NCBI GenBank assembly: GCA_026390345.1
Contig: JAPLGD010000068.1
Coordinates: 24,078 to 88,077 of the forward strand
Source of the DNA: Candidatus Bipolaricaulota bacterium
GTDB lineage: Bacteria; Bipolaricaulota; Bipolaricaulia; UBA7950; UBA9294
Direction of reading: 5' to 3'
DNA length: 64,000 nt
Shown here: piece after piece, positions 10,978 to 59,609 of the stretch
Position numbering within the stretch: position 1 is the first letter of the stretch
Layout: each line of letters begins with the position of its first letter
Notes under the pieces: generated by a model
Databases searched by the model: none
Told to the model about the DNA's origin: nothing
What the model saw: only the letters and a program-made list of their open reading frames with translations
Made by a program: the position numbers and the translations under genes

Positions 10978-11118
10978 ATGATGATGGGCCGAGGTTTCCA
11001 TCTTGTGAATGAGAAGAGAGATTTCGCCGATGGAGGTCTCCATCTCGTGGACGAGAAGAGAAGGTTCGTCGATGGCGGGCTCCACCTCTTCGACGCAGAA
11101 GGGAGGGTTCACTCATGA
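10978..11118 (+). CDS. Candidate 46-aa tandem-repeat peptide MMMGRGFHLVNEKRDFADGGLHLVDEKRRFVDGGLHLFDAEGRVHS (not in the ORF track)
   Basis: The open frame begins after a TGA at 10960-62. Three consecutive ATGs, no stop for 46 codons, and a TGA that overlaps the ATG of the next gene (ATGA at 11115-11118). The frame encodes 14-aa repeats matching the 42-bp DNA repeats. There is no clear SD. Confidence 0.3.
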   Translation: MMMGRGFHLVNEKRDFADGGLHLVDEKRRFVDGGLHLFDAEGRVHS

Positions 11119-45950: not shown

Positions 45951-45980
45951 CTGCGTCTCCTCGCCTAGGGGTCGCCCTTG

Positions 45981-46053
45981 CAGGCCCGGAGGGGCTCGAA
46001 CCCCCGACCTTCCGATTTGGAGTCGGATGCTCTGCCAATTGAGCTACGGGCCT
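45981..46053 (-). tRNA. tRNA-Trp (anticodon CCA)
   Basis: Cloverleaf AGGCCCGTAGCTCAATTGGCAGAGCATCCGACTCCAAATCGGAAGGTCGGGGGTTCGAGCCCCTCCGGGCCTG. Located in the conserved rpmG-tRNATrp-secE position. Confidence 0.9.
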
Positions 46054-46125
46054 GTATCACGCCTTCGGCCCGACACGGGCCTGTATCACCTCGGCCCGCC
46101 GCGGGCCTGTGCTCGTCGGCCCGAC
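46054..46125. repeat. Degenerate duplications of the tRNA-Trp 5' leader plus first 9 nt (GTGATACAGGCCCGT x2, plus a third partial copy)
   Basis: The direct repeats gggcctgtatcac at 46047-46059 and 46075-46087, and gggcctgtgctc near 46102, lie between tRNA-Trp and rpmG. Confidence 0.5.
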
Positions 46126-48023: not shown

Positions 48024-48608
48024 TCACTCCTTGCGATCGAGGCGCCGCTCGAGCTCCGCCCGCAGCTCCTCGCGGTCGCCGATCCCCTGCACCCGCAGGA
48101 TCACGTCACGCCGCTCGCCGTTCCCAGCCCCGTTCGTCATGCTGACGATGTGGACGTTGTGCGCGTGGAGCACATCGAGGACGCTGTACAACTCCTCAGA
48201 CCCCGCACGGAGCCGAAGCTCCATCCGTGTCCCCTCGAGTCCGATGCCGAGCCCGTCTGCGAGCCCGCGCAGCACCGCACTCTGCGTGATCACGCCGACC
48301 AGCAGGTCCCCCTCCGTCACCGGCAGGACAACCAGGCGGTTCTCCAGCATGATCAGGGTCGCCTTCTCGAGCGTATCCGTCGGCGAGACCGAGAACCTCA
48401 CAGGGTGAGCGATCGCCTCTATCGGAGACTCCCAATCGACGATCCCCTTGAGCGATCCGCGGGTAACAAACCCCCGCAGCCGACCGTCCTCCGAAGTCAC
48501 CAGAAGGACCCCAAACCCGTGCTCTTCCATCAGCTTGCGAACCGTCCCGGCCGTCGTGGATGGAAGAGCGGTCACGGCATCCCGCTGCATGTGTTGCGCG
48601 ACGTTCAT
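48024..48608 (-). CDS. CBS-pair plus ACT domain protein
   Basis: Two CBS motifs (GFGVLLVTSEDGRLRGFVT and RLVVLPVTEGDLLVGVIT) and a C-terminal ACT-like fold. ATGA overlap with the upstream EF-G2-like gene. Confidence 0.8.
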   Translation of the reverse strand: MNVAQHMQRDAVTALPSTTAGTVRKLMEEHGFGVLLVTSEDGRLRGFVTRGSLKGIVDWESPIEAIAHPVRFSVSPTDTLEKATLIMLENRLVVLPVTEGDLLVGVITQSAVLRGLADGLGIGLEGTRMELRLRAGSEELYSVLDVLHAHNVHIVSMTNGAGNGERRDVILRVQGIGDREELRAELERRLDRKE

Positions 48609-50575
48609 TCCTGCTCGGCTTGGGCCTGTGCGACGACTTTCTCCTGGATGTTTCCAGGAACCTGTTGGTATCTCGCGAAATCCATCCGGAACGTAGCTCG
48701 CCCTTGGGTGCGTGACTTGAGATCGAGCGCGTAGTTCAACAGCTCGGCGAGCGGCGCCTCGGCGACAACAACCGTGGTCTTCCCCGCCGGCTCCATCCCA
48801 AGGATGCGCCCGCGGCGCCCGTTCATGTCGCTGATGATGTCCCCCATGTGATCCTCAGGCACGCGCACCCTCACGGACATGATCGGCTCGAGGAGGCACG
48901 GCTCCGCGTTGTCGAACGCCTCACGGAACGCGCCCCTCGCAGCGAGCTTGAACGCAAGCTCGGAGGAGTCCACCGGGTGGAAGCTTCCGTCGAACACCGC
49001 GACGAGGACCTCCGTGACCGGGAACTTGGCCAGGCTGCCCTGCTCCAGCGCCTCGAGGATGCCCTTCTCGACGCCGGGCACGTACTGGTTGGGAATCGAC
49101 GCGCCCTTGATCTCGTCGACGAACTTGAACCCGCCCTCGCCCTTGTACGGCTCGATGCGCAGCCACACCTCGCCGAACTGGCCACGGCCGCCGGTCTGCT
49201 TCTTGTGACGGTACTTGGCCTCCGCCTTCTTCCGAATCGTCTCCTTGTACGGGATCCGCGGCTGTCGGGTTTCGAGCGAGACGTTGTATCGGTTTTTGAG
49301 CCTCTCGATGAACACGGACACGTGCACGTCTCCCATCCCGTGCAGCGTGAGCTCCTTCGTGACCGGATCGCGTTCCACGACGATCGTGGCCTTGGTCGCC
49401 GCGATCTCCTTCAGCGCCGCGCCCATCTTGTCGACGTCCGCCTGGCTCTTCGGAACGATCGTCCGCGAGAAGACCGGCCTCGGGAACTCCAGCATCGGGA
49501 ACGCCTCTCCGCCTTGGCTGACCCCGAGCGTCGCTCCAAGGGCGATGTGCTCCGCCTTGGCGATCGCGACGATCTCGCCGGGTCCTGCTTGGGGAACGCG
49601 CTTCTGCTTCGTGCCTTCGAGAGCGTAAAGGTCACGCACGTCGACCTTCGCTCCGGACACGACGTCCACGAGACCCTTCCCCTCCTGAATCGTGCCCTCG
49701 AGGACCCGCACGAAGGAGAGACGTCCGAGGTACGGGTCGCTCGCCAGGTTGAACGCCACGACGCGACACGGTGCGCCCGCATCACCGGCTCGCGGCGCAA
49801 CGTAGCCCACGAACGCCTTCAGCAGCTGATCGAGTCCCTTCCCCTCCGTCACCGAAGAGCAGAGGACTGGGACGATGGCTCCGGCCGCGATCCCCTTCAC
49901 GAGCGCCCGGGCGACCTCGCTTTCGCTGATCGGTGCCTCATCGAGGAACTTCATCATCAATTCGTCGTCCGCCGTCGCGACCTCTTCAAGAAGAGCGCCA
50001 CGCGCCATCTCGACTTCGTCGGTGATGTCGGCCGGGATCTCCTTCTTTGCCTTGTCGGCGAAGTCCACGAGTCGGTTCGAGACGAGGTCGACCATGCCCG
50101 TGAACGCTCCGCCGGCGCGGATTGGCATCTGGACCGGAACCAGCTTCCCTTCGAAGTGGTTACGCAGGTCAGCCACGGCCTTGTCGAAGTTCGCGTTCTC
50201 CTTGTCCATCAGGTTGACGAGAACGATCGTCGGGCGCTTCGCGCCCCCGGAGATCTCCCACGCCCGCTCCGTGACGACCTCCACGGCCTTCTCCGCGTTC
50301 ACCACGAGGACCGTCAGATCCGCAACGGGAATCCCTTTGTACATCTCCTCGATGAACTCATCGCCGCCCGGCGTGTCGAGGAGAGTAATCGAGACACCGT
50401 CCGCCTGGAACGCGCCGAAGCCCATGTCGAGCGTGTGCCCACGTTCCTTCTCCTCCTGCGACGCGTCCAGCGTGATCTGCTCTTTGGTGCCCGCGCGCGC
50501 TAGGAGCGCGGCGGTAAGGGCCGTCTTCCCAGTACCGGAGTGCCCCACCAAGCAGATGGTCCGAGCCTGCCCCAT
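48605..50575 (-). CDS. Elongation factor G paralog (EF-G2/FusA2-like) with non-canonical G motifs
   Basis: Full five-domain EF-G architecture. G1 is GHSGTGKT, G3 is DTPGGDEF (the switch II His is replaced by Gly), G4 is NLMD. ATG at 50575 is preceded by AAGGGGG. Confidence 0.85.
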   Translation of the reverse strand: MGQARTICLVGHSGTGKTALTAALLARAGTKEQITLDASQEEKERGHTLDMGFGAFQADGVSITLLDTPGGDEFIEEMYKGIPVADLTVLVVNAEKAVEVVTERAWEISGGAKRPTIVLVNLMDKENANFDKAVADLRNHFEGKLVPVQMPIRAGGAFTGMVDLVSNRLVDFADKAKKEIPADITDEVEMARGALLEEVATADDELMMKFLDEAPISESEVARALVKGIAAGAIVPVLCSSVTEGKGLDQLLKAFVGYVAPRAGDAGAPCRVVAFNLASDPYLGRLSFVRVLEGTIQEGKGLVDVVSGAKVDVRDLYALEGTKQKRVPQAGPGEIVAIAKAEHIALGATLGVSQGGEAFPMLEFPRPVFSRTIVPKSQADVDKMGAALKEIAATKATIVVERDPVTKELTLHGMGDVHVSVFIERLKNRYNVSLETRQPRIPYKETIRKKAEAKYRHKKQTGGRGQFGEVWLRIEPYKGEGGFKFVDEIKGASIPNQYVPGVEKGILEALEQGSLAKFPVTEVLVAVFDGSFHPVDSSELAFKLAARGAFREAFDNAEPCLLEPIMSVRVRVPEDHMGDIISDMNGRRGRILGMEPAGKTTVVVAEAPLAELLNYALDLKSRTQGRATFRMDFARYQQVPGNIQEKVVAQAQAEQE

Positions 50576-50657
50576 GTCGATGTCCCCCTTGGGTGAACGA
50601 TAAGTGGTCTTGCGGAGTATATCGACCCCTCGCGGAGGGAGCAAGAATCGCCGCTAC

Positions 50658-50850
50658 GGTTGCGGTTCCGCCCTCCGTACACGGTTGCGGCTCCGCCCTC
50701 CGTACACGGTTGCGGCTCCGCCCTCCGTGCACGCTTGCGGCCCCGCCCTCCGTGCACGCTTGCCGCCCCGCCCTCTCATCAAGCTTGCGGCTCGGCCACG
50801 GCACGCCGTCCGCTTGCCGCTCCGTCCGCGTTTGCGGCCCCGCCCGGCGC
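50658..50850. repeat. Array of 7-8 tandem copies of a GC-rich 25-bp repeat (consensus GCTTGCGGCYCCGCCCTCCGTRCAC) in a divergent intergenic region
   Basis: Units at 50658-82, 50683-707, 50708-32, 50733-57 and 50758-82, plus longer and shorter degenerate units out to about 50850. No spacers of unique sequence, so this is not a CRISPR array. Confidence 0.85.
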
Positions 50851-50917
50851 CGCGTATCCTCTTCGTCCTTCCTCTGCGTCGAAGCCGGGGAAATACCACG
50901 GAACGCGGGAGGTTCAC

Positions 50918-52531
50918 ATGGCGACGCAGCTCTTGCTCGGAGATGAGGCGCTCGCTCAGGGTGCGATCGACGCCGGACTTTCCGCAGCGTACGCGTACCC
51001 CGGCACTCCGTCCACGGAGATCACCGAGCACATCCTTCGCAGCCCGGAGGCCCGAGCCGGCGAGATCGTCTGCCGCTGGGCCGCAAACGAGAAGACCGCG
51101 CTCGAGGCGGCGCTTGGCGCAAGCTACGCCGGGAAGCGCGCGATGGCGAGCATGAAGCACGTCGGGTTGAACGTCGCCGCCGATCCGTTCGTGAACGCTG
51201 CGATCTCCGGCGCCCACGGCGGACTCCTCGTCAACGTCGCCGACGACCCGTCCATGCACTCGTCCCAGAACGAGCAGGACTCGCGGCTCTATGCCGAGCT
51301 CGCGCTCGTTCCGTGCTTCGAGCCCTCCGACCAGCAGGAGGCCTACGCCGTTCCGGCGCGCGCCTTCGAGCTGTCGGAGACTTACCGCGTCCCGGTTCTC
51401 GTCCGCCTGACGACGCGGCTCGCCCACTCCCGCGCCACGGTCGAGGTCGGCGGACAACGTCCGCAGAACCCGCTCTCGCGACCCGAGCAGCCCGAGCGAT
51501 TCATCCTCCTCCCCGCGATCGCGAAGCGAAGCTACGAGCGCCTCGTCGGTCATCAGCCCGACTTCGTTCGCGAAAGCGAGGCGAGTCCGTTCAATCGCCT
51601 GTCGCAGGACGGCGACCGCGCGCTCGGAATCGTGGCGTGCGGCATCGCCTACAATTACCTCCTCGAGGTGACAGACGGCGCGCCGCGGCACCCGGTCCTC
51701 AAGGTCGGCCAGTATCCGCTTCCTGCGCGTGACGTCGAGTGGCTCGTCGAGCACTGCGGCAGGATCCTCATCCTCGAAGAGGGATACCCCTACGTAGAAG
51801 GCAAGCTTCGGGGCCTCCCGCCGCGCTCGGCGCCGGCAATCCACGGCCGCCTCACGGGCGACGTCCCGCGGACCGGCGAGTTGTCACCCGACATTGTCGC
51901 CGCGGCGCTCGGACTCAGTGCGCTCGCCCGCCGAGCGGCGTCTTCGGTCCCGGCACCGCGTCCGCCTGCCTTCTGTCCCGGGTGCCCGCACGCCGACACG
52001 TGCAAGGTGCTTGCCGAGGTCCTCGTGTCCCGCCGCGACTCTGCCCGCGTCTTCTCCGACATTGGGTGCTACACGCTTGGCGCGCTCCCGCCGCACGGCG
52101 TCATCGACACGTGCGTCGAGATGGGTGCGTCGATCACCATGGCCCACGGCGCGTCCGAGGCCGGGCTTCGCCCGGCCGTCGCCCTGATCGGCGACTCGAC
52201 GTTCACCCACTCGGGCATGACGGGGCTCCTCGACTGCGTCAACGCCAACGCCGACGTCACGGTCATCATCGTCGACAACCTCACCGTGGCGATGACCGGC
52301 GGCCAACGCTCGGCGGCGGAGAACCGGCTCGTCTCCATCTGCCGCGGGCTCGGCGTGGACGAAGCCCACATCCGCGTCATCGAACCCCATCCACGCAACC
52401 ACAAGCAGAACGTCGCCGTTCTCGACCAGGAGATTCAGTACCCGGGAACCTCCGTCATCATCGCGCAGCGCGAATGTATCCAGACGGCCAAACGGTCCGC
52501 GCGCCGGGGAGCGCGGGGAGGCCAGGAATGA
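50918..52531 (+). CDS. iorA: Indolepyruvate/2-oxoacid:ferredoxin oxidoreductase alpha subunit (TPP-binding)
   Basis: N-terminal POR domain, and a TPP domain with FCPGCPH. ATG at 50918 is preceded by GGGAGG. The upstream part of the tracked ORF runs through the repeat array. Confidence 0.85.
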   Translation: MATQLLLGDEALAQGAIDAGLSAAYAYPGTPSTEITEHILRSPEARAGEIVCRWAANEKTALEAALGASYAGKRAMASMKHVGLNVAADPFVNAAISGAHGGLLVNVADDPSMHSSQNEQDSRLYAELALVPCFEPSDQQEAYAVPARAFELSETYRVPVLVRLTTRLAHSRATVEVGGQRPQNPLSRPEQPERFILLPAIAKRSYERLVGHQPDFVRESEASPFNRLSQDGDRALGIVACGIAYNYLLEVTDGAPRHPVLKVGQYPLPARDVEWLVEHCGRILILEEGYPYVEGKLRGLPPRSAPAIHGRLTGDVPRTGELSPDIVAAALGLSALARRAASSVPAPRPPAFCPGCPHADTCKVLAEVLVSRRDSARVFSDIGCYTLGALPPHGVIDTCVEMGASITMAHGASEAGLRPAVALIGDSTFTHSGMTGLLDCVNANADVTVIIVDNLTVAMTGGQRSAAENRLVSICRGLGVDEAHIRVIEPHPRNHKQNVAVLDQEIQYPGTSVIIAQRECIQTAKRSARRGARGGQE

Positions 52532-53109
52532 GGCGCGACATCATCCTCGCCGGCGTCGGCGGCCAGGGCCTGTTGGCTCTCGCGGCCGTGCTCGGTCAGG
52601 CCGCCCGCGGGCTTGGCCTTCACCTCAAGCAGGCCGAAGTCCACGGCATGGCCCAACGCGGCGGCGTCGTGCAAAGCCACGTCCGCTTCGGCGACCGCCC
52701 CGTCCACTCTGACCTTGTCCGCGAAGGAACGGCAGACCTCGTTCTCGCGCTCGAGCCGATGGAGGCGCTCCGCTACCTTCCGTACCTGAAGCTCGACGGC
52801 GCCCTCGTCTCCGATACGCGGCCGGTGCGCAACATCCCGGAGTACCCGGACGTCGACCGCATTCTCGCCGAGCTGCGGGTGATCACGCCCCATCGCCTCG
52901 TCGACGCCGCGGCCCTCGCCGAGCAAGCCGGATCGCCGCAGGCGAGCAACCTGGTTGTCCTCGGCGCGGGGCTTCCGTTCCTCGGCCTCCCCGTGGAGGC
53001 TCTCGAGGACGGGATCCGCGCCGCCTTCGCGGGCAAGGCGGAGGCCGTCGTCGCCGCGAACCTTCGCGGATTCAAGCTCGGCGTCGAGTGGACGCAGGTG
53101 CCATCGTAG
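52528..53109 (+). CDS. iorB: Indolepyruvate oxidoreductase beta subunit (POR gamma-type)
   Basis: DIILAGVGGQG start. ATGA overlap with iorA. Confidence 0.85.
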   Translation: MRRDIILAGVGGQGLLALAAVLGQAARGLGLHLKQAEVHGMAQRGGVVQSHVRFGDRPVHSDLVREGTADLVLALEPMEALRYLPYLKLDGALVSDTRPVRNIPEYPDVDRILAELRVITPHRLVDAAALAEQAGSPQASNLVVLGAGLPFLGLPVEALEDGIRAAFAGKAEAVVAANLRGFKLGVEWTQVPS

Positions 53110-53197
53110 AGCCCCTCGCACCTCCCACACGCCCTCGGCTTGCCGGCTGGGAATCGTCCCGGTAGGCTATCCGCGTTCAGGATTCCGGGAGGTCAAG

Positions 53198-54094
53198 ATG
53201 CGAAAGCTCGTTGGGGTCCCTGTTGTCCTCGTCCTTCTCCTCATCGTCGGTTCGTGCTTCGTCGCGTCGGATTCGACGGGCGTCGTGCGCATCGGCGTCT
53301 TCACCGACATCCACGTCCACGACACCAACTCGCCCAACGAACACAAGGTGATGGCGAACTACGAGCCGCGGCTCACGGCGTTCGTCGAGGCGATGACGGC
53401 GTGGCCGGCCGACGCCGTCGTCTCGCTCGGCGACCTCGTGAACGGCGTCTTCGTCATGGGCGCCGATCTCGGCGACTCCGCGCGCATCCCTGCGCTCCTC
53501 GACCGTGCCGTCGGGATCCTCCACGGCTACTCGGGGCCGATCAGCTACGTCTTGGGGAACCACGACGTGTACAACCTGACCAAAGCGCAGTTCCTCGCAG
53601 CCACCGGATCGCCCGCCGCGTACCGGAGCTTCGACCTCGGCGCCTACCACGTCGCGATCCTCGACGCCCAGTTCAACAAGGCAGGCCAGGACTACGGGAA
53701 CGTGAGTTGGATGGTCCAAGGGACGATCCCCACCGCGGAGCTCGAGTGGCTGCGCGCCGACCTCGCCGCAACCCAGAAGCCGACAATCGTCTGCGTCCAC
53801 CAGCCGCTTGACCTGGCGTTCGAGCTTCTCGCCGGCGGACCGTCGGTCTCGAACGCCCCCGAGGTGCGCGCCGTTCTTGCCGCCTCCGGCCGCGTCATCA
53901 CCGTCTTCCAAGGACACACGCACGACTCGGCCCACACCGTCATCGACGGGATTCACTACGTCACCTTCGCCGGCATGGTCGATGCCGATGTGCCGACGCC
54001 CGCGTCGTGGGCCGCGGTGACCCTGGACCCGACCGCGCGGACGATCCACATCGAGGGTGTCGGACTCCAAGAGACCCTCGACATCGTCTACTAA
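53198..54094 (+). CDS. Secreted calcineurin-like metallophosphoesterase
   Basis: Signal peptide (VGSC lipobox-like). GDLVNG, GNHD and GHTH motifs. ATG after GGGAGG. Confidence 0.8.
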   Translation: MRKLVGVPVVLVLLLIVGSCFVASDSTGVVRIGVFTDIHVHDTNSPNEHKVMANYEPRLTAFVEAMTAWPADAVVSLGDLVNGVFVMGADLGDSARIPALLDRAVGILHGYSGPISYVLGNHDVYNLTKAQFLAATGSPAAYRSFDLGAYHVAILDAQFNKAGQDYGNVSWMVQGTIPTAELEWLRADLAATQKPTIVCVHQPLDLAFELLAGGPSVSNAPEVRAVLAASGRVITVFQGHTHDSAHTVIDGIHYVTFAGMVDADVPTPASWAAVTLDPTARTIHIEGVGLQETLDIVY

Positions 54095-54124
54095 CTAGCA
54101 GGAAGAAGGGAAGGAGGACCGCCG

Positions 54125-55096
54125 GTGAGTCGGCTGTCGAAGCTTGGCATGGCATGGGCGGCGGCAGTTCTCGTAGTGCTCCTCGCCGTCCTCGAGGGAG
54201 GCGCGGACCCCGCCGCGGATGCCGCGAGCAGCGTCAGCGCCAGTGACGCTGCCCCCGTTCGCTTTGGCCTCTTCACCGATCTGCACGCCGATGACCGAGA
54301 CTCGCCGGCCGAGCGAAAGCGGATGACCCACACGGCCGAGCGCCTCGGCGCCTTCTGCGCGGCGATGAATGCCGAGGCCGTCGACTTCACGATCGAGCTC
54401 GGCGACTTCGTCAATGGCTGGCTCGTCCTGGGTGCCGATCCCGGGGACCCAGGCAGGATTCCCGAGATCCTCGCGTGGGCAGACTCGCTCTACGCCGCGT
54501 TCACGGGACCTCGCTACCACGTCCTCGGGAACCACGACCTCTTCAATCTCGACAAGGTGGCGATCCGCGAGATCCTGGGGCTCGAGCGGACCTACTACAG
54601 CTTCGACGTCCGGGGCGTTCACTTCGTCGTTCTCGACGCGGAGTTTGCCGAAAACGGAAGCGACCTCGCGCGGACGTACACCGGCGTCGCCGGGTTCATC
54701 CCGCCCGCGGAGCTGGTTTGGCTGAGCGAGGACCTCGCCGGGTCCGACCGTCCGACGATCGTCTTCGTCCATCAGATGCTCGACGAGTACATCGAGGAGT
54801 GGGGCCGTTCCCTCATTGCCAACCAGCGCGAGGTGCAGGCCGTTCTCTCCGCGGACCCCGAGGTTGTCGCCGTGCTCCAGGGACACGCCCACGCGTTCCG
54901 CCACAGCGAGGTCGGCGGCGTTCACTACCTCACGTTTGCAGCGCTCGTCGATCAGGAGACGCCGCCCTCGTGGGCCCTCGTGACCGTCGATCCTGCGGCG
55001 CGAACCGTCATGATCGATGGCACGGGAGAGCAGCCGAACCTTGGGTTCTCGTACGAGATCTCGCGCCCCGGCGCGAGCAAGGGAGGAACCGAATGA
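54125..55096 (+). CDS. Secreted calcineurin-like metallophosphoesterase (paralog of the previous gene)
   Basis: GDFVNG, GNHD and GHAH motifs. GTG after AAGGAGG. Confidence 0.8.
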   Translation: MSRLSKLGMAWAAAVLVVLLAVLEGGADPAADAASSVSASDAAPVRFGLFTDLHADDRDSPAERKRMTHTAERLGAFCAAMNAEAVDFTIELGDFVNGWLVLGADPGDPGRIPEILAWADSLYAAFTGPRYHVLGNHDLFNLDKVAIREILGLERTYYSFDVRGVHFVVLDAEFAENGSDLARTYTGVAGFIPPAELVWLSEDLAGSDRPTIVFVHQMLDEYIEEWGRSLIANQREVQAVLSADPEVVAVLQGHAHAFRHSEVGGVHYLTFAALVDQETPPSWALVTVDPAARTVMIDGTGEQPNLGFSYEISRPGASKGGTE

Positions 55097-55386
55097 TCGT
55101 CGACTTCAGCATCGCTCCGATCGGTCGCGGCGAGAGCCTAAGCCGCTACGTCGCTGAGGCGTACCGGATCATCGAGGCGTCCGGCGTCCGGCACGAGTTC
55201 CACGCGATGGGCACGAACCTCGAAGGCGACTGGGGCGAGGTCATGACCGTCGTCAATGCCTGTCGCTTGCGCTTGCTCGAGACGTGCGGGCGCGTGTCGA
55301 TCTCGCTCCGCATCGACGACCGCAAAGGGGCATCCGACCGCCTCGGCCACAAGGTCGCGTCGGCACAGGAGAAAGCGGGGCTCTAG
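55093..55386 (+). CDS. MTH1187/YkoF-family protein (thiamine-binding-like, 97 aa)
   Basis: MIVDFSIAPIG...MGTNLEG. ATGA overlap with the upstream gene. Preceded by GGGAGG. Confidence 0.75.
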   Translation: MIVDFSIAPIGRGESLSRYVAEAYRIIEASGVRHEFHAMGTNLEGDWGEVMTVVNACRLRLLETCGRVSISLRIDDRKGASDRLGHKVASAQEKAGL

Positions 55387-56996
55387 TCCGCCGCCGGGTG
55401 AATGACGAGCACGTCGCCGGCGATGTTCGCGGCGTGATCGCCGATCCGCTCTAGGTTATGGAGGATCTCCACGAACAGGATCCCTGCCTCCGGATCGCAC
55501 TCGTCTGACTCCAGGCGCTCGACGTGGTGGCTCTTGTACCGCGTTTCAAGCTCGTCCAAGTGCTTCTCCAAATCCAGGGCCCGCTTGGCTTCGCCGATGT
55601 TCTCTGTGTCAAGCGCGGCAAGCGATAGCTGGTAGAGCTCGATCGCCCGGTCGAACATGTCGCCAAGCTCGCCGGCCGCCACCGCGGAGAGGCTGCGGCC
55701 CTTCGCCATCAGCTTTTCGGCACGCACGGTGATGTTGACGGCCTGGTCGCCCACCCGTTCGACATCGGCGACGATGTGGCGGAGGACGTGGAGGCGGCGC
55801 TCGTCCTTCCCGCTGAGCGCACTGCCGTCAATTCGGTCGAGGAACTCGTCGACCGAGTCCTTGAGCCCGTCGACCGCCTCCTCCACCTCGCCAACCGACG
55901 CGATCTCCGTGGAATCGCGCTTCAGGATCCCTTCCTTGCACGCGCGGATCATCGCCGCCGTCATCCCACCCATCCGCAGGAGCTCGCGCTGTGCCTGGCG
56001 CACGGCGAACGCAGGCGTCGCCAGGAATTGCTCCCCGAGGAACTGCGCTCGCCCCCCGGTGCCCTCCTCGCGCCCCCGCACGAGCATCCGAGCAACCCAA
56101 ACCAGCCCGCCGACGCAAGGAATAAGGGCGAGCGTTACGGCCACGTTAAAGATCGAGTGGGCGTTCGCGATCTGTCGCGGCAGAGAAGACGACGTCATCT
56201 GCACCAATCGCGTGAACCACGGCAGAAAGGGCAGGAACACGCCAACTCCGACCACGTTGACGACCAGCTGGGTCACCGCGAGTCGCCGCGACGAAAGCGA
56301 CGTCCCGATCGATGCGATCTGGGCCGTGACCGTCGTACCGATGTTCGCACCGAGGACGATGGCGATGGCGGCGGGCAGGGAAATCAGCCCCGAGCTGCCC
56401 AGTCCGATGACGAGCGCCGTCATCGCCGCCGAGCTGTGGATGGCCGCCGTCACCCCAGCGCCGACAAGGACGCCGAGAAGCACGTTGTCGCCGCACGCCT
56501 GGAGGACACGCAAGATCGTGGGGCTCTGCGCGAGCCCTACAAGTCCTCCGGTGAAGATGCCCATCCCGAGGAAGACGAGGCCGAGTCCGAGGACGATGCG
56601 GCCGACGTCGCCCACCTTCCTCCCGCGGAACGTCTCCGCCAGGATGTAGCCGACGGCGAGGACCGGCATGTAGTAGATGCCGATCTTGAACGCGATGATC
56701 TGCGCGGTCAGCGTCGTCCCGATCTCCGCCCCGAGCATGACGCCGATTCCCTGCGCCAGGGTGAGGATGCCGGCGTTGATCATCCCGATCAGAAGCACCA
56801 TCGTCATCGTGCTCGACTGAAGGGTCGCCGAGGTGACCATGCCGACGAGGACGCCGCGGTAGGCCTTGCCGGTCAGCCGCTCGACGATCACTCGCATGCG
56901 GTCGCCAACCGCACGTTTGAGCGCGTCGCTCATGATCCTTAGTCCGAACAGGAAGACCGCCAGACCGCCGGCAGCGCTGAAGAGAACCCCGACCAT
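55383..56996 (-). CDS. Na/Pi-cotransporter family protein with C-terminal PhoU-like domains
   Basis: Two NptA repeats (SATLQSSTMTMVLL and SSAAMTALVIG) and a cytoplasmic PhoU-like C-terminus. The ATG at 56996 is uncertain, since longer starts are possible. Confidence 0.8.
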   Translation of the reverse strand: MVGVLFSAAGGLAVFLFGLRIMSDALKRAVGDRMRVIVERLTGKAYRGVLVGMVTSATLQSSTMTMVLLIGMINAGILTLAQGIGVMLGAEIGTTLTAQIIAFKIGIYYMPVLAVGYILAETFRGRKVGDVGRIVLGLGLVFLGMGIFTGGLVGLAQSPTILRVLQACGDNVLLGVLVGAGVTAAIHSSAAMTALVIGLGSSGLISLPAAIAIVLGANIGTTVTAQIASIGTSLSSRRLAVTQLVVNVVGVGVFLPFLPWFTRLVQMTSSSLPRQIANAHSIFNVAVTLALIPCVGGLVWVARMLVRGREEGTGGRAQFLGEQFLATPAFAVRQAQRELLRMGGMTAAMIRACKEGILKRDSTEIASVGEVEEAVDGLKDSVDEFLDRIDGSALSGKDERRLHVLRHIVADVERVGDQAVNITVRAEKLMAKGRSLSAVAAGELGDMFDRAIELYQLSLAALDTENIGEAKRALDLEKHLDELETRYKSHHVERLESDECDPEAGILFVEILHNLERIGDHAANIAGDVLVIHPAAD

Positions 56997-57109
56997 TGCA
57001 CCCCCCGGGGCTGTGTTTCCCGGAAGCGAAGTATATACTCCGCCCGGCATGTTACAAGCCAGATGCCCGTTCGTTACTTGCGTATCCCGTCCAAAACCCG
57101 TAGATTGAG

Positions 57110-58147
57110 ATGACAATGACCGACTGGCTCCGGCGAATGCCGAAGATTGATCTTCACGTCCACCTGGACGGCTCCCTCAGGCTCGAGACGGTCCTGAAGT
57201 TGGCCCGTGCGCTCCCGCCCGAGCAAGCGTTTCCCGACTCGGTCAACCTGAAGAGTGCCGTCATCCCTGGGGCTCGCGGCTCGCTCGAGGAGTACCTCGT
57301 GGCGTTCGACTACACCGTCCCCCTGCTCCAGACATCCGCCGCCCTCGAGCGATCGGCGTACGAGCTGTGCGAGGATGCCGCGAGCGAGAACGTCATCTAC
57401 ATCGAGATCCGCTTCGCGCCGCTCCTCCACACCCGCGCGGATCTGAAGCCGCGAGACGTCGTTGCCGCCGTGCTCGCTGGAATGCATCGCGCCGAGGCCG
57501 ACTTCGGGATCGTCGCCGGGCTAATCCTCACGGCCCTGAAGCAGAACTCGACCGAGCAGTCGATCGAAACCGTCCAGCTGGCCGCGCAGTTCCGCCGCGA
57601 CGGCGTCGTCGGCGTCGACCTCGCTGGGCCGGAGCACCAGAACCCGCCGGTCAAGCACCGCAAGGCGATCGAGTTCGCACACGACGCGGGCATCCACGTC
57701 ACCATCCACGCCGGCGAAGGGTGCTGCCCGGAGCAGATCAAGGAAGCCCTCGACCTGGGAGCGGAGCGGATCGGCCACGGGGTCTACCTTTTCCAGGCGC
57801 CGCGAACCGAGAAGCGGGTCGCCGAGCTGGGCATCCCGCTCGAGATGTGCCCCACGAGCAACCTCCAGGTCGCCGGGTTCATGAAGAACTACCGCGACCA
57901 TCCGATTAAGCGCTACCTCGACGCCGGCATCGTCGCGACGGTCAACACCGACAACCGGCTGATGTCGCAGACCGATATGACGAGCGAGTTCGAGCATCTC
58001 GTGAAGGCGTTCCGCCTCACGAGGAAGAACGTCCAGCGACTGGTCTCAAACAGCGTCCGGGCCGCGTTCGCGTCCGACGACCGAAAACGCGAGCTGCAGG
58101 AGCGCGTCGACGCATTCTTCGCCCCCGCGAGGAAGCAGAAGCCCTGA
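57110..58147 (+). CDS. add: Adenosine deaminase
   Basis: KIDLHVHLDGS, HAGE and NTDN motifs. Confidence 0.9.
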   Translation: MTMTDWLRRMPKIDLHVHLDGSLRLETVLKLARALPPEQAFPDSVNLKSAVIPGARGSLEEYLVAFDYTVPLLQTSAALERSAYELCEDAASENVIYIEIRFAPLLHTRADLKPRDVVAAVLAGMHRAEADFGIVAGLILTALKQNSTEQSIETVQLAAQFRRDGVVGVDLAGPEHQNPPVKHRKAIEFAHDAGIHVTIHAGEGCCPEQIKEALDLGAERIGHGVYLFQAPRTEKRVAELGIPLEMCPTSNLQVAGFMKNYRDHPIKRYLDAGIVATVNTDNRLMSQTDMTSEFEHLVKAFRLTRKNVQRLVSNSVRAAFASDDRKRELQERVDAFFAPARKQKP

Positions 58148-58163
58148 GAAGCGCGATCGTACG

Positions 58164-58490
58164 TCAGCCGAAGAGGCCTCCCTCTTCGATTTCCTGCCAC
58201 CCAAAGCGCCGCAAGTCGATGCGCCCGTTCGCGTCGAAGGCGACGCCCTCTGCCTTCAAACACTCGATCTGCTCGCCGCCGATGCTCGACTCCCCCTTCG
58301 CGTTGACGACCCGATGCCACGGGACGTCGGGCCGCGGGGCTCCGCGGCCGAGGGCCGCCATCGCGTAGCCGACCTGCCGCGCCGCCTTCGGCATGCCCAC
58401 GAGCTGCGCGATCTGTCCGTACGTCGCAACCTGCCCGCGCGGGATGCGCTTCGTCACTTCGTAGATCCGCTCGTACAGCCCATCGCCCAT
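58164..58490 (-). CDS. Alkyltransferase-like (ATL) protein: an MGMT DNA-binding domain with Trp in place of the active-site Cys
   Basis: The motif PWHRVVNAKG appears in place of PCHRV. 108 aa. Confidence 0.8.
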   Translation of the reverse strand: MGDGLYERIYEVTKRIPRGQVATYGQIAQLVGMPKAARQVGYAMAALGRGAPRPDVPWHRVVNAKGESSIGGEQIECLKAEGVAFDANGRIDLRRFGWQEIEEGGLFG

Positions 58491-58584
58491 ACCCTCACTC
58501 CTTCCTTCTAGCCTGCCACGCTACGACAGCGCCAGGGCGCCGACAAGAAAAGGATCGCCGCCCGCCGTGTCCCCGCCGTCTCGC

Positions 58585-58805
58585 CTCACGGCACGCCGTC
58601 CACTTGCCGCTCCGTTCGCGCTTGCCGCCCCGCCCACGGCACGCCGTCCACTTGCCGCTCCGTTCGCGTTTGCCGCCCGGCACCCCGTCCGTTTGCCGCT
58701 CGGCCCTCCGTGCACGCTTGCCGCTCGGCCCACCGTCCACGCTTGCCGCCCCGCCCGCCGTCCACGTTTGCGGTAGCGCCCTCCGTCCGCGTTTGCGCCC
58801 TTGCC
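58585..58805. repeat. Second array of about 9 tandem copies of the same 25-bp GC-rich repeat family, including a ~49-bp higher-order duplication
   Basis: cacggcacgccgtccacttgccgctccgttcgcg is repeated at 58587 and 58635. Later units such as gcttgccgctcggccctccgtgcac are 22/25 identical to units of the 50658 array, in the same orientation. Confidence 0.85.
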
Positions 58806-58835
58806 AGACCGCGAGCGGGCCTGTACGGTGATCGC

Positions 58836-59609
58836 ATGGGCCTCCTCAAGCGCCACCGCCGCGAGCGGATCCGACGCCGTCCGTTTCCTCCCGCCTGGCA
58901 GGCGATCCTCGAGCGCACGTTCCCCCGCCACCTGCGCCTCTCCCCCGAGGATCGAAAGGAACTCGAGGGGCACATCCAGGTCTTCCTCGCCGAGAAGCGA
59001 TTTGAGGGCGCCGCAGGGCTTGCGATCACCGACGAAATCCGCGTGACCATCGCCGCGCAGGCCTGCTTCCTTCTCCTGCACCGAGACACGGACTTCTACC
59101 CGGGTCTCTACTCGATCATCGTCTACCCCGAGGAGTACGTGGCCAGCTACCATCTCCGGGACGAGAGAGGATTCGTCGAGGAAGGACCGCAAGTCCGGCT
59201 CGGAGAGGCGAGCGGCCGGGGCGCGGTGGTCTTGTCGTGGGACGGCGCGCTGCGCGGCGCGTCGGACGTTGAGGACTGCCACAACGTCGTCTTCCACGAG
59301 TTCGCCCACCAACTCGACGCCGAGAGCGGTAGCTTCGACGGTGCACCGCTGCTCCCCGAGCGGTCGATGTACCTCGCCTGGGCCCGCACCCTGAGCGAGG
59401 AGTGGCACGCGCTTCGAGCCCGCGCGAGCCGCCATGAGCCCACCGACCTCGACCCGTACGGGGCCACGAACCCGGCCGAGTTCTTCGCCGTCGTCACCGA
59501 GTGCTTTTTCCAGCGTCCGCACCAACTCCGGGAAACCCACCCGAAGCTCTACGAAGAGCTCGAGCGTTTCTATCGCCAGGATCCGACGTCCTCGATGCCG
59601 TCGACGTGA
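58836..59609 (+). CDS. MtfA-like zinc-dependent peptidase (M90 family)
   Basis: HEFAHQLD zinc motif. The internal ATG at 58836 follows the repeat array. Confidence 0.75.
   Translation: MGLLKRHRRERIRRRPFPPAWQAILERTFPRHLRLSPEDRKELEGHIQVFLAEKRFEGAAGLAITDEIRVTIAAQACFLLLHRDTDFYPGLYSIIVYPEEYVASYHLRDERGFVEEGPQVRLGEASGRGAVVLSWDGALRGASDVEDCHNVVFHEFAHQLDAESGSFDGAPLLPERSMYLAWARTLSEEWHALRARASRHEPTDLDPYGATNPAEFFAVVTECFFQRPHQLRETHPKLYEELERFYRQDPTSSMPST

What the first reader, a model, noticed from the sequence alone, without database searches (positions are those of the whole stretch)
50658..50850. GC-rich 25-bp tandem repeat array in a divergent promoter region (locus 1 of 2)
Seven to eight head-to-tail copies of GCTTGCGGCYCCGCCCTCCGTRCAC fill most of the 340-bp gap between the divergently transcribed EF-G2-like gene and iorA. 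The first three units are near-identical and later units degrade, which suggests expansion from one end. There are no unique spacers, so it is not a CRISPR array. It is not coding, because every frame through it is low-complexity. The same repeat family recurs 8 kb away in the same orientation, again between divergent genes. This could be an array of binding sites for a regulator, a recombination- or slippage-prone minisatellite giving phase-variable promoter spacing, or a genome-wide intergenic repeat family.
Basis: seen in the sequence. Interest (0 to 1): 0.65.

Follow-up and report, generated by a model that had tools for sequence, protein, structure and literature searches.

The report
Hypervariable intergenic minisatellite of Bipolaricaulota
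The 25-bp repeat is real and non-coding, and belongs to an apparently undescribed family of fast-changing intergenic repeat arrays found in one subgroup of the uncultured phylum Bipolaricaulota; it behaves like the VNTR/STAR-type repeats known in other bacteria, and no specific function could be shown.

Summary
Array 1 (50656-50850) has eight head-to-tail units: four clean 25-mers, then degenerate 25-, 29- and 18-bp units. It fills the space between the -35 hexamers of two divergent promoters, EF-G-like and iorA. Array 2 (58575-58798) has the same family and orientation.

The window comes from a Bipolaricaulis-like bacterium. The same modular units (consensus TTGC-S-GC-N-C-S-GCCC-D-CCGT-N-C-R-CG-Y) form arrays at 12 or more distinct intergenic loci in related genomes. 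These loci lie between divergent, co-directional and convergent genes.

Arrays keep their position across species whose flanks are 78-93% identical, but their interiors are completely reshuffled. Near-identical strains differ only by whole-unit indels. Arrays in one genome share more variants than orthologous arrays in different genomes.

Bipolaricaulota whose EF-G-like protein is only 65-77% identical keep both promoters but have no array. The array is therefore a clade-specific insertion that the promoters do not need.

It is not CRISPR, not REP-like, not coding, and matches no Rfam family. It is best read as a new member of the interspersed intergenic direct-repeat (VNTR) kind. Position-specific conservation within the units leaves protein recognition possible.

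The parts
50656..50850 (+). Array 1, the finding. Eight head-to-tail units, C-rich on the + strand.
   Evidence: TRF, the repeat finder and unit layout.
50660..50759 (+). Four canonical 25-bp units, TTGCGG(T/C)(T/C)CCGCCCTCCGT(A/G)CACG(G/C). The first three carry the window-specific 'ACACGG' junction, which marks a recent local amplification.
   Evidence: These units are absent from the 93.5%-identical relative L088.
50760..50831 (+). Degenerate or variable-length units of 25, 29 and 18 bp. Together they form a composite unit of about 48 bp that is shared with array 2.
   Evidence: shared segments CCACGGCACGCCGTCC and CTCCGTCCGCGTTTGCG.
50832..50860 (+). Terminal unit core TTGCGG (50832-50837), read as the inferred -35 of iorA. 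It is followed by a 17-nt spacer and TATCCT (50855-50860), the inferred -10.
   Evidence: The TTGCGG/TTGCGA/TTGCAG-17-TAYNCT arrangement is conserved in L031, L065, L088 and in array-less L082-L084, with variable spacer sequence. The tool's stricter consensus scan did not call it.
50616..50644 (-). Inferred promoter of the EF-G-like gene. The -35 TTGCTC is at 50644..50639, then a 17-nt spacer, then the -10 TATACT at 50621..50616. The -35 lies in an inverted partial unit at 50631-50645.
   Evidence: TTGC(T/C)N-17-TATACT is conserved in every orthologue from 65 to 96% protein identity. The inverted arm was found. The promoter scan did not call it.
48605..50575 (-). EF-G-like GTPase gene, 656 aa, the left flank.
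   Evidence: Pfam. Homologues are named elongation factor G of Ca. Bipolaricaulis/Bipolaricaulota.
50918..52531 (+). iorA-like gene (POR_N + TPP_enzyme_C), 537 aa, the right flank.
   Evidence: Pfam. Gene lengths are the same in relatives.
58575..58798 (+). Array 2, same family and orientation. It has two 48-bp composite units followed by 23-25-bp units.
58801..58838 (+). Inferred promoter of the M90 peptidase gene. TTGCCA (58801-58806), 17-nt spacer, TACGGT (58824-58829), 6 nt, then ATG at 58836. This suggests a leaderless mRNA.
   Evidence: Conserved in L011 and L074/L075. Inference only; the promoter scan called nothing here.
58518..58546 (-). Inferred promoter of the MGMT-like gene. TTGTCG (58546..58541), 17-nt spacer, TAGCGT (58523..58518).
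   Evidence: Read from the sequence. The hexamers and spacer length are kept in L074/L075. Inference only.
58164..58490 (-). MGMT-type DNA_binding_1 gene, 108 aa, the left flank of array 2.
   Evidence: Pfam. An identical protein is on Logan contigs that end inside array 2.
58836..59609 (+). Peptidase_M90 (MtfA-like) gene, the right flank of array 2.
   Evidence: Pfam.

Best explanation
The array is one locus of a clade-specific, dispersed family of non-coding GC-rich minisatellites (VNTR-type interspersed direct repeats) in Bipolaricaulis-like Bipolaricaulota.

Shown:
- Modular 16-30-bp units, with 25 bp the commonest, sit head to tail in intergenic DNA at many loci.
- Each array keeps its genomic position and orientation across species.
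- Units are gained, lost and reshuffled much faster than the flanks diverge.
- Arrays of one genome share unit variants, which indicates concerted evolution.
- At this locus the array sits between two ancestral divergent promoters that work without it in related lineages.

Inferred:
- Change occurs by replication slippage or unequal exchange between units.
- Variants spread between arrays by gene conversion.
- The effect on EF-G-like and iorA expression is secondary. The array lengthens and changes the DNA upstream of both -35 hexamers, and its last unit coincides with the iorA -35.
- The invariant unit positions are kept either by a protein that reads the unit or by genome-wide homogenisation.
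For: Family and taxonomy:
- Tandem hits in the genome collection fall only in Bipolaricaulota MAGs. One of them is labelled Thermotogae but is 100% identical to Bipolaricaulota-type contigs.
- EF-G-like homologues carry Bipolaricaulis names.
- A metagenome scan adds arrays of up to about 560 bp and about 21 units.

Positional conservation:
- Locus 1 has an array in L031, L065 and L088.
- Locus 2 has one in L011, L065 and L074/L075.
- The nitroreductase locus has one in L038 and L071.

Hypervariability:
- L074 and L075 are 99.43% identical over 8.6 kb, and their only indel is one 27-bp unit.
- L061 and L070 have 3 mismatches in about 5.9 kb outside the array. Inside it they differ by an 18-bp unit indel and a rearranged 120 bp.
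- L063 and L076 differ by 18+5 bp inside the array.
- L088 has flanks 93.5% identical to the window, but only 22 nt of array 1 are covered by 16-mers it shares with L088.

Concerted evolution:
- Of the 206 nt of array 1, 81 are covered by 16-mers shared with array 2. The figures for its own orthologues are 22, 18 and 56 nt.

Clade-specific insertion:
- L082-L087 and P0007 have EF-G-like proteins 65-77% identical and keep the iorA/EF-G divergent pair.
- Their gaps are 195-247 bp and hold both promoter hexamer pairs but no array. No profile hit occurs anywhere in the 13-22-kb loci whose DNA was available (L082-L087). For P0007 only the 238-bp gap length is known.

No restriction to one context: arrays occur in divergent, co-directional and convergent gaps.

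Non-coding:
- The period is not a multiple of 3.
- Orthologous gaps differ by lengths not divisible by 3 (342 vs 419 bp).
- iorA starts at the same ATG in array-less relatives.
Against: - Position-specific conservation is stronger than simple drift predicts. GCCC (positions 11-14), CCGT (16-19), C21 and G24 are at least 90% conserved even in 22 unique units that did not match my search patterns. Positions 8, 15 and 20 are random. This fits a sequence-reading protein at least as well as homogenisation.
- Within the window, both arrays lie in 2 of about 8 divergent gaps and in none of about 52 other junctions. This is a crude gene call, and the Fisher p of about 0.016 is my own calculation.
- The last unit coincides with a conserved -35.
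- Copy-number differences come from metagenome assemblies, which can mis-assemble tandem repeats.
- No complete genome could be scanned, so the number of arrays per genome is only extrapolated: 2 in 64 kb.
Confidence: 0.68

Rival explanations
1. The arrays are functional protein-binding platforms. A clade-specific DNA-binding protein, or RNA polymerase sigma region 4 through the -35-like TTGCSG, reads each unit. Unit number would then tune or insulate neighbouring promoters and give strain-level expression variation.
For: - Conserved and free positions alternate within the unit across loci and species.
- The GCSGCNCSGC dyad tends to stay complementary, 71 vs 28 units, Fisher p=6e-5. Units are not independent, however.
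- Both window arrays abut -35 hexamers, and the terminal unit coincides with the iorA -35.
- A precedent exists in promoter tandem-repeat copy-number variation in M. tuberculosis (PMC12817950).
Against: - Arrays also lie between convergent genes. Examples are L063, between thioesterase and amidohydrolase, and L078, between an I42 inhibitor gene and a 90-aa ORF. These are the longest arrays.
- Flanking genes have no common function.
- Periods of 16, 18, 22-25 and 30 bp give no constant helical phasing.
- Both promoters are conserved in relatives without arrays.
- Units contain no -10 element, so they are not whole promoters.
Confidence: 0.2
2. The arrays are the expandable part of a mobile REP/BIME-like mosaic. 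Hairpin elements (GTCGCAC-RCAAG-GTGCGAC and CGTCGGAG-CTTGC-CTCCGACG) would be mobilised, and the direct-repeat array would grow from the hairpin's 3' tail.
For: - Hairpin elements lie directly 5' of arrays, or inside them, in L011, L064, L065 (both loci), L066 and L069. The tail GCTACGTCCGT runs straight into units.
- Hairpin variants keep their base pairing.
Against: - There is no hairpin element anywhere in the window.
- None is seen in the arrays of L031, L088, L074, L023, L038/L071, L061 or L063.
- No gain or loss of an array was seen in the 6-14 kb of each relative (L011, L031, L065, L074/L075) that aligns with the window, so mobility would be rare.
- No transposase was examined.
Confidence: 0.1
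3. The array acts as RNA. It would be a structured or SD/anti-SD-rich untranslated region that affects mRNA stability or translation.
For: - The G-rich strand of array 1 folds better than shuffles as RNA, z=-4.2.
- Units carry GGAGG on the G-rich strand.
- In 5 of 6 co-directional loci the G-rich strand is the sense strand.
Against: - The conserved promoter hexamers lie between the array and each flanking gene at both window loci. The array is therefore upstream of the inferred transcription starts.
- The C-rich strand has z=-1.4.
- As DNA, array 1 has z=-2.1 and array 2 has z=+0.25, so structure is not a family property.
- No Rfam match was found.
- The orientation bias is not significant.
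Confidence: 0.04
4. The array is a replication- or recombination-related signal. It could be a DnaA-box cluster (T-N-CAC core in CCGTNCACG) or a polar Chi/KOPS-like G-rich element.
For: - The unit contains GTNCAC, which resembles the TTATNCACA core (my own recollection of the consensus).
- In the window the G-rich strand lies on the strand with positive GC skew.
Against: - Only 5 of 9 DnaA-box positions match.
- The strongly conserved TTGC and GCCC blocks are unexplained by this reading.
- Cumulative skew is monotonic with no origin-like switch.
- Three loci with significant skew are discordant.
- About one array per 32 kb is far too dense for such a signal.
Confidence: 0.03

Closest known systems
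STAR elements of Staphylococcus aureus, which are interspersed intergenic direct repeats (PMC3532100)
   Same: - GC-rich short direct repeats occurring in arrays in intergenic regions at many loci.
- Positions are stable within a lineage while loci expand and contract.
- Function and means of spread are unknown.
- Confined to some species of a genus or clade.
   Different: - No sequence relation.
- STAR is a 14-bp core separated by at least 40 bp of recurring spacer. Here the units are contiguous and 16-30 bp long, with no spacer.
- STAR sequences at each locus are stable and locus-specific. Here array interiors are reshuffled between genomes 6.5% apart, and arrays of one genome share variants.
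MIRU-VNTR loci and promoter tandem repeats of Mycobacterium tuberculosis (PMC3635867 abstract; PMC12817950)
   Same: - Minisatellites in intergenic DNA of a high-GC genome.
- Fixed loci with copy-number variation between strains.
- Some lie just upstream of leaderless promoters.
- Short-read assemblies collapse or break at them.
   Different: - M. tuberculosis units are 40-100 bp, and the promoter repeats (54-58 bp) duplicate whole promoters. Here the units are 25 bp with only a -35-like hexamer and no -10.
- There is no evidence here that copy number changes expression.
- The phylum and the sequence are different.
REP/BIME elements of enterobacteria (own knowledge)
   Same: Dispersed intergenic repeats built as mosaics of several short motifs. 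In relatives, the arrays adjoin hairpin elements that look REP-like.
   Different: REP units are imperfect palindromes that form stem-loops and occur in alternating orientation. These units are direct repeats in one orientation, with only a 4-bp dyad around a 2-nt gap and no consistent folding.
CRISPR arrays
   Same: Head-to-tail short repeats in non-coding DNA that break short-read assemblies.
   Different: There are no unique spacers, the repeats are contiguous and degenerate, the period is variable, and the loci lie between housekeeping genes.

Membership tests
CRISPR array | Near-identical repeats separated by unique spacers of similar length. | tested here: not met
   Units abut one another with start-to-start spacing equal to the unit length (25 bp), and no spacers are present.
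REP/BIME-type palindromic element | Each unit is an imperfect palindrome able to form a stable stem-loop. | tested here: not met
   The only dyad is GCSG-NN-CSGC, 4 bp around a 2-nt gap, complementary in 71 of 99 units. ssDNA folding gives z=-2.1 for array 1 and +0.25 for array 2.
VNTR / interspersed intergenic direct-repeat family (STAR-like, MIRU-like kind) | Tandem direct repeats in non-coding DNA at several dispersed loci of a genome. | tested here: met
   There are two loci in the window and at least 12 distinct loci in related genomes.
VNTR / interspersed intergenic direct-repeat family (STAR-like, MIRU-like kind) | Copy number varies between closely related strains while the locus position is stable. 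| tested here: met
   Whole-unit indels are the only indels between contig pairs 99.4%, about 99.9% and 98.9% identical. Orthologous positions are kept in relatives 78-93% identical. Caveat: these are metagenome assemblies, not long reads.
STAR element (S. aureus) sequence family | A 14-bp core T(G/A/T)TGTTG(G/T)GGCCC(C/A) recurring at intervals of at least 40 bp (PMC3532100). | tested here: not met
   The unit consensus is TTGCSGCNCSGCCCDCCGTNCRCGY, and units are contiguous. The two differ in both sequence and architecture.
Phase-variable contingency promoter repeat | The repeat lies between -35 and -10, or within the ORF, so that unit number switches expression on and off. | tested here: not met
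   The array lies upstream of both inferred -35 hexamers, and the 17-nt spacers lie outside the repeats. The promoters are inferred from conservation, not mapped.
Promoter tandem repeat as in M. tuberculosis (PMC12817950) | The repeated unit contains a whole promoter, so that copy number changes promoter dosage. | tested here: not met
   The 25-bp unit has a -35-like TTGCSG but nothing -10-like 16-18 nt downstream. Only the terminal unit is followed by TATCCT.
Iterons / plasmid origin or partition site | Direct repeats adjacent to a rep or par gene on a replicon. | tested here: not met
   The flanks are EF-G-like, iorA, MGMT-like and M90 genes in a conserved tuf-rpmG-secE-nusG-rplKAJL-rpoB neighbourhood. 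Many loci exist per genome.
DnaA-box cluster / oriC | Several matches to TTATNCACA, and a GC-skew switch. | tested here: not met
   The unit matches at most 5 of 9 positions, and cumulative skew is monotonic over the 64 kb.
Known structured RNA (Rfam) | A match to a covariance model. | tested here: not met
   No match up to E=1 in 50300-59100. Only four tRNAs reach gathering score in the whole window.
Sequence-specific protein-binding array | A protein that binds the unit. | not testable with these tools
   Only indirect evidence is available, namely position-specific conservation.

The most novel reading that the evidence does not exclude
The units are read by a clade-specific DNA-binding protein. 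The arrays would then be copy-number-tunable upstream platforms or insulators whose rapid expansion and contraction generates heritable strain-to-strain differences in expression of neighbouring housekeeping genes in an uncultured phylum. In this reading the invariant TTGC/GCCC/CCGT positions are the binding code.
Probability: 0.18. Interest if true: 0.6.

Novelty: new member of a known kind. Interest (0 to 1): 0.35.

Why it matters
The family gives Bipolaricaulota, a phylum known only from metagenomes, a set of hypervariable markers. They could be used for strain typing and for tracking populations by long reads.

It also explains why short-read assemblies of these genomes break at particular intergenic sites. 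Three Logan contigs end at window position 58616, inside array 2.

It is a clean natural example of several things together: invasion of an ancestral divergent promoter region by a minisatellite, concerted evolution between arrays, and a unit with a sharply position-specific conservation pattern that invites a binding-protein search. It does not by itself change understanding of any pathway.

Tried and rejected
- **CRISPR:** no spacers.
- **Coding or N-terminal extension of iorA:** the period is not divisible by 3. Orthologous gap lengths differ by 77 bp. Array-less relatives start iorA at the same ATG.
- **Assembly artefact:** the family is present in independent NCBI, JGI, ENA and Logan assemblies.
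- **Consensus promoter/terminator scan:** nothing was found at its threshold. The promoters were instead inferred from hexamers conserved across the phylum with constant 17-nt spacers of variable sequence.
- **Rfam:** no match.
- **Viral contigs:** no match.
- **Literature on Bipolaricaulota/Acetothermia repeats:** nothing relevant.
- **Array orientation against local GC skew:** mostly concordant but with three significant exceptions, so inconclusive.
- **Orientation against neighbouring gene direction:** 5 of 6 co-directional loci, which is not significant.
- **G-quadruplex:** by eye, G-tracts of 3 or more are about 17 nt apart, so no canonical motif. This was not computed.
- **False positives:** loci L059 and L072 from the metagenome scan turned out to be chance matches in coding DNA. 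Most single hits of the genome scan in Streptomyces and similar genomes are also chance.
- **Exact look-ups:** look-ups of the EF-G-like and adenosine deaminase proteins found nothing.
- **Scan limits:** one genome-collection scan and one metagenome scan were all that was allowed, so no whole-genome census could be made.

Full report
**1. Observation**

The sequence at 50656-50850 is a head-to-tail direct repeat. Tandem Repeats Finder gives a 25-bp period, 5.7 copies and 89% matches for 50656-50797. Degenerate units continue to about 50850.

Splitting at the core TTGCSGC gives unit starts at 50660, 50685, 50710, 50735, 50760, 50785, 50814 and 50832. That is four clean 25-mers, one decayed 25-mer, a 29-mer, an 18-mer and a terminal unit.

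A 23-nt unit pattern with up to 3 mismatches occurs 6 times, against 0.01 expected. A 15-nt core occurs 12 times against 0.32 expected. All hits lie in the two arrays and on the + strand.

A profile HMM of the 25-mer finds nothing else in the 64 kb, so there are no solitary units.

The second array is at 58575-58798 in the same orientation.

- Locus 1 lies between an EF-G-like gene (48605-50575, -) and an iorA-like gene (50918-52531, +), in a 342-bp gap.
- Locus 2 lies between an MGMT-type DNA_binding_1 gene (58164-58490, -) and a Peptidase_M90 gene (58836-59609, +).

**2. Whose genome, and is it a family**

A scan of one genome per species for a degenerate unit pattern gave mostly single chance hits in GC-rich genomes. 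Tandem or multiple hits occurred only in Candidatus Bipolaricaulis/Bipolaricaulota MAGs. One of these contigs is labelled Thermotogae but is 100% identical to Bipolaricaulota-type metagenome contigs.

The EF-G-like protein's homologues are 96% (unnamed Logan cluster), 89% and lower in identity. The named ones, from 89% downward, are elongation factor G of Ca. Bipolaricaulis or Bipolaricaulota.

A metagenome scan for two adjacent units gave 23 more stretches. About 16 hold real arrays, some 450-560 bp long with about 20 units. L059 and L072 were chance matches in coding DNA.

After collapsing near-identical contigs and orthologues, at least 12 distinct loci carry arrays. No match was found in viral contigs, none in Rfam, and no paper on such repeats in this phylum turned up.

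**3. Anatomy of the unit**

Distances between successive cores are 25 bp (66 cases), 18 (26), 24, 23, 16, 22 and 30.

The 25-mer consensus is TTGC-S-GC-N-C-S-GCCC-D-CCGT-N-C-R-CG-Y. The 18-mer is the same unit without the 7-nt CSGCCCN block.

Conservation is sharply position-specific. I took 22 unique 25-mers that did not match either of my search patterns, so they are free of ascertainment apart from the TTG anchor. In these, G11-C14, C16-T19, C21 and G24 are at least 90% conserved. Positions 8, 15 and 20 are random, and positions 5, 9/10 and 22 are two-state.

Positions 5 and 10 tend to be complementary, forming the dyad GCSG-NN-CSGC. The count is 71 vs 28 (p=6e-5), but units are related by duplication and so are not independent.

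Folding is not a family property:
- As RNA, array 1 gives z=-4.2 for the G-rich strand and z=-1.4 for the C-rich strand.
- As ssDNA, the G-rich strand of array 1 gives z=-2.1 and that of array 2 gives +0.25.

**4. Behaviour over evolutionary time**

(a) Position is stable.
- Locus 1 carries an array in L031 (Ca. Bipolaricaulis STB_77), L065 and L088.
- Locus 2 carries one in L011 (STA_74), L065 and L074/L075.
- A third locus, downstream of a nitroreductase gene, carries one in both L038 and L071.
- Flanks are 78-93% identical in these comparisons.
- Across the 6-14 kb of each relative that aligns with the window, arrays occur only at these two sites.

(b) Content is unstable.
- The EF-G/iorA gap is 342 bp in the window and 419 bp in L088 (93.5% identical flanks). 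It is about 490 bp in L031 and about 645 bp in L065.
- Only 22 nt of array 1 are covered by 16-mers shared with L088, and these lie at the left boundary.
- The window's three to four near-identical GGTTGCGGCTCCGCCCTCCGTACAC copies are therefore a recent amplification at the EF-G-proximal end.

(c) Copy number varies between strains.
- L074 and L075 are 99.43% identical over 8,634 bp, and their single indel is one 27-bp unit in the locus-2 array.
- L061 and L070 have three mismatches in about 5.9 kb outside the array. Inside it they differ by an 18-bp unit indel and a rearranged 120 bp.
- L063 and L076 differ by 18+5 bp inside the array.
- These are assemblies, so long reads are needed for certainty.
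- Three Logan contigs, 99.8-100% identical to the window, end at position 58616 inside array 2.

(d) Concerted evolution.
- Of the 206 nt of array 1, 81 are covered by 16-mers shared with array 2 of the same genome. This includes a composite unit of about 48 bp.
- The figures for its own orthologues are 22, 18 and 56 nt.
- L065's two arrays share a genome-specific CCGTACGCG variant.

(e) The family is young relative to the phylum.
- Bipolaricaulota with EF-G-like proteins 65-77% identical (L082-L087 and P0007) keep the same divergent iorA/EF-G pair and neighbourhood.
- Their gaps are 195-247 bp and contain no array. There is no profile hit anywhere in the 13-22-kb loci whose DNA was available (L082-L087). 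For P0007 only the 238-bp gap is known.

**5. Relation to the promoters (inferred)**

The tool's consensus scan called no promoter. Phylogenetic footprinting is nevertheless clear.

On the EF-G side, TTGC(T/C)N-17 nt-TATACT is present in every orthologue from 65 to 96% identity, and the spacer sequence varies. In the window this is 50644..50639 and 50621..50616 on the - strand.

On the iorA side, TTGCGG/TTGCGA/TTGCAG-17 nt-TAYNCT is conserved in the same way. In the window this is 50832-50837 and 50855-50860.

The array therefore fills almost exactly the interval between the two -35 hexamers. That interval is 187 nt here, against roughly 85-100 nt in array-less relatives. The last unit's core coincides with the ancestral iorA -35.

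At locus 2 the M90 gene has TTGCCA-17-TACGGT followed 6 nt later by ATG, which suggests a leaderless mRNA. The MGMT-like gene has TTGTCG-17-TAGCGT. Both are conserved in relatives.

Three things follow:
- The arrays are not inside the -35/-10 spacers, so unit changes cannot act as a spacing switch.
- The arrays are upstream of the inferred transcription starts, so they are probably not transcribed with these genes.
- The promoters predate the arrays and do not need them.

**6. Context across loci**

- Divergent: the two window loci.
- Co-directional: DUF2227 to efp, and Asp23 to folD (L079); nitroreductase to the next gene (L038/L071); methyltransferase to the next gene (L023); epimerase to UDP-glucose dehydrogenase (L045); biotin carboxylase to ffh (L066).
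- Convergent: thioesterase against amidohydrolase (L063), and an I42 inhibitor gene against a 90-aa ORF (L078/L061/L070). These hold the longest arrays.

This mix resembles the baseline of junction types in the window, by a crude gene call: 43 co-directional, 9 convergent and 8 divergent. Within the window, both arrays lie in divergent gaps. The flanking genes share no function.

The G-rich strand is the sense strand in 5 of 6 co-directional loci, which is not significant. The comparison with local GC skew is inconclusive.

**7. Interpretation**

The best-supported reading is a clade-specific family of hypervariable intergenic minisatellites. Arrays were seeded before the Bipolaricaulis-like species diverged and have stayed in place since. 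They turn over rapidly by slippage or unequal exchange between units, and they exchange variants within a genome.

This is the behaviour described for interspersed intergenic direct repeats such as STAR elements of S. aureus (PMC3532100). It also matches MIRU/VNTR loci and promoter tandem repeats of M. tuberculosis (PMC3635867 abstract; PMC12817950). There is no sequence relation to either.

Two architectural differences stand out. Units are contiguous, unlike STAR, which has spacers. Units do not contain a whole promoter, unlike the M. tuberculosis promoter repeats.

The feature that drift does not easily explain is the alternation of invariant and free positions within the unit. It keeps open a sequence-reading protein, acting either for function or for propagation. 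I give that rival about 0.2.

In relatives, REP-like hairpin elements adjoin or interrupt arrays, and their 3' tail runs straight into units. This suggests a possible seeding route, but the window has no such hairpin.

**8. Verdict**

The family, the minisatellite behaviour, the expansion from one end, and the not-CRISPR and not-coding calls are supported. The promoter-spacing switch and the divergent-gene specificity are not.

Novelty: a new member of a known kind. Interest is modest, at 0.35.

Noticed in passing
window 46046-46125: Three tandem copies of about 26-28 bp lie between rpmG (L33, - strand) and tRNA-Trp (45980-46053, -). Each copy repeats the first ~8 nt of the tRNA (AGGCCCGT) plus upstream leader, and contains a CGGGCC...GGCCCG dyad.
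   Followed up: no
window 10991-11088: A 42-bp tandem repeat (2.3 copies, 80% matches) lies in a gap of about 180 bp just upstream of an ATG near 11115. Each copy ends in ATG, and 42 bp equals 14 codons.
   Followed up: no
L011 5251 and 5483; L065 3372 and 11810; L064 ~5180; L069 4220-4438 and ~7990; L066 ~5150; L045 1629-2399; L079 9912-10060: A second, REP-like repeat family occurs in related genomes. It comprises the hairpins GAAC-GTCGCAC-RCAAG-GTGCGAC-GCTAC (the variant GTCGTAC..GTACGAC keeps pairing) and CGTCGGAG-CTTGC-CTCCGACG. These often lie directly 5' of the 25-bp arrays or inside them. Some copies carry a nested insertion GTGCGCTCTCGCG...GAGCGCATAGAC. None occurs in the window.
   Followed up: partly
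window 58801-58838: The Peptidase_M90 gene appears to be leaderless. The conserved arrangement TTGCCA-17 nt-TACGGT ends 6 nt before the ATG, and the same arrangement is seen in L011 and L074/L075.
   Followed up: partly
L001-L003 (Logan SRR20698646-8), aligning to window 56751-58616: Short-read contigs 99.8-100% identical to the window all end at 58616, inside array 2. The source organism is therefore present in those runs, and the arrays break short-read assemblies.
   Followed up: yes
L022 (CAZWQN010000013.1, labelled 'uncultured Thermotogae bacterium'): This 761-bp stretch is 100% identical to the Bipolaricaulota-type metagenome contigs L063 and L076 and carries the same array. The MAG's taxonomic label, or its binning, is probably wrong for this contig.
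   Followed up: partly
L063 989-1188: The first units of the 630-bp array overlap the stop-to-stop ORF of the thioesterase gene (Pfam domain ends near nt 955, ORF runs to 1188). The array may therefore have extended or replaced the C-terminal coding end.
   Followed up: no
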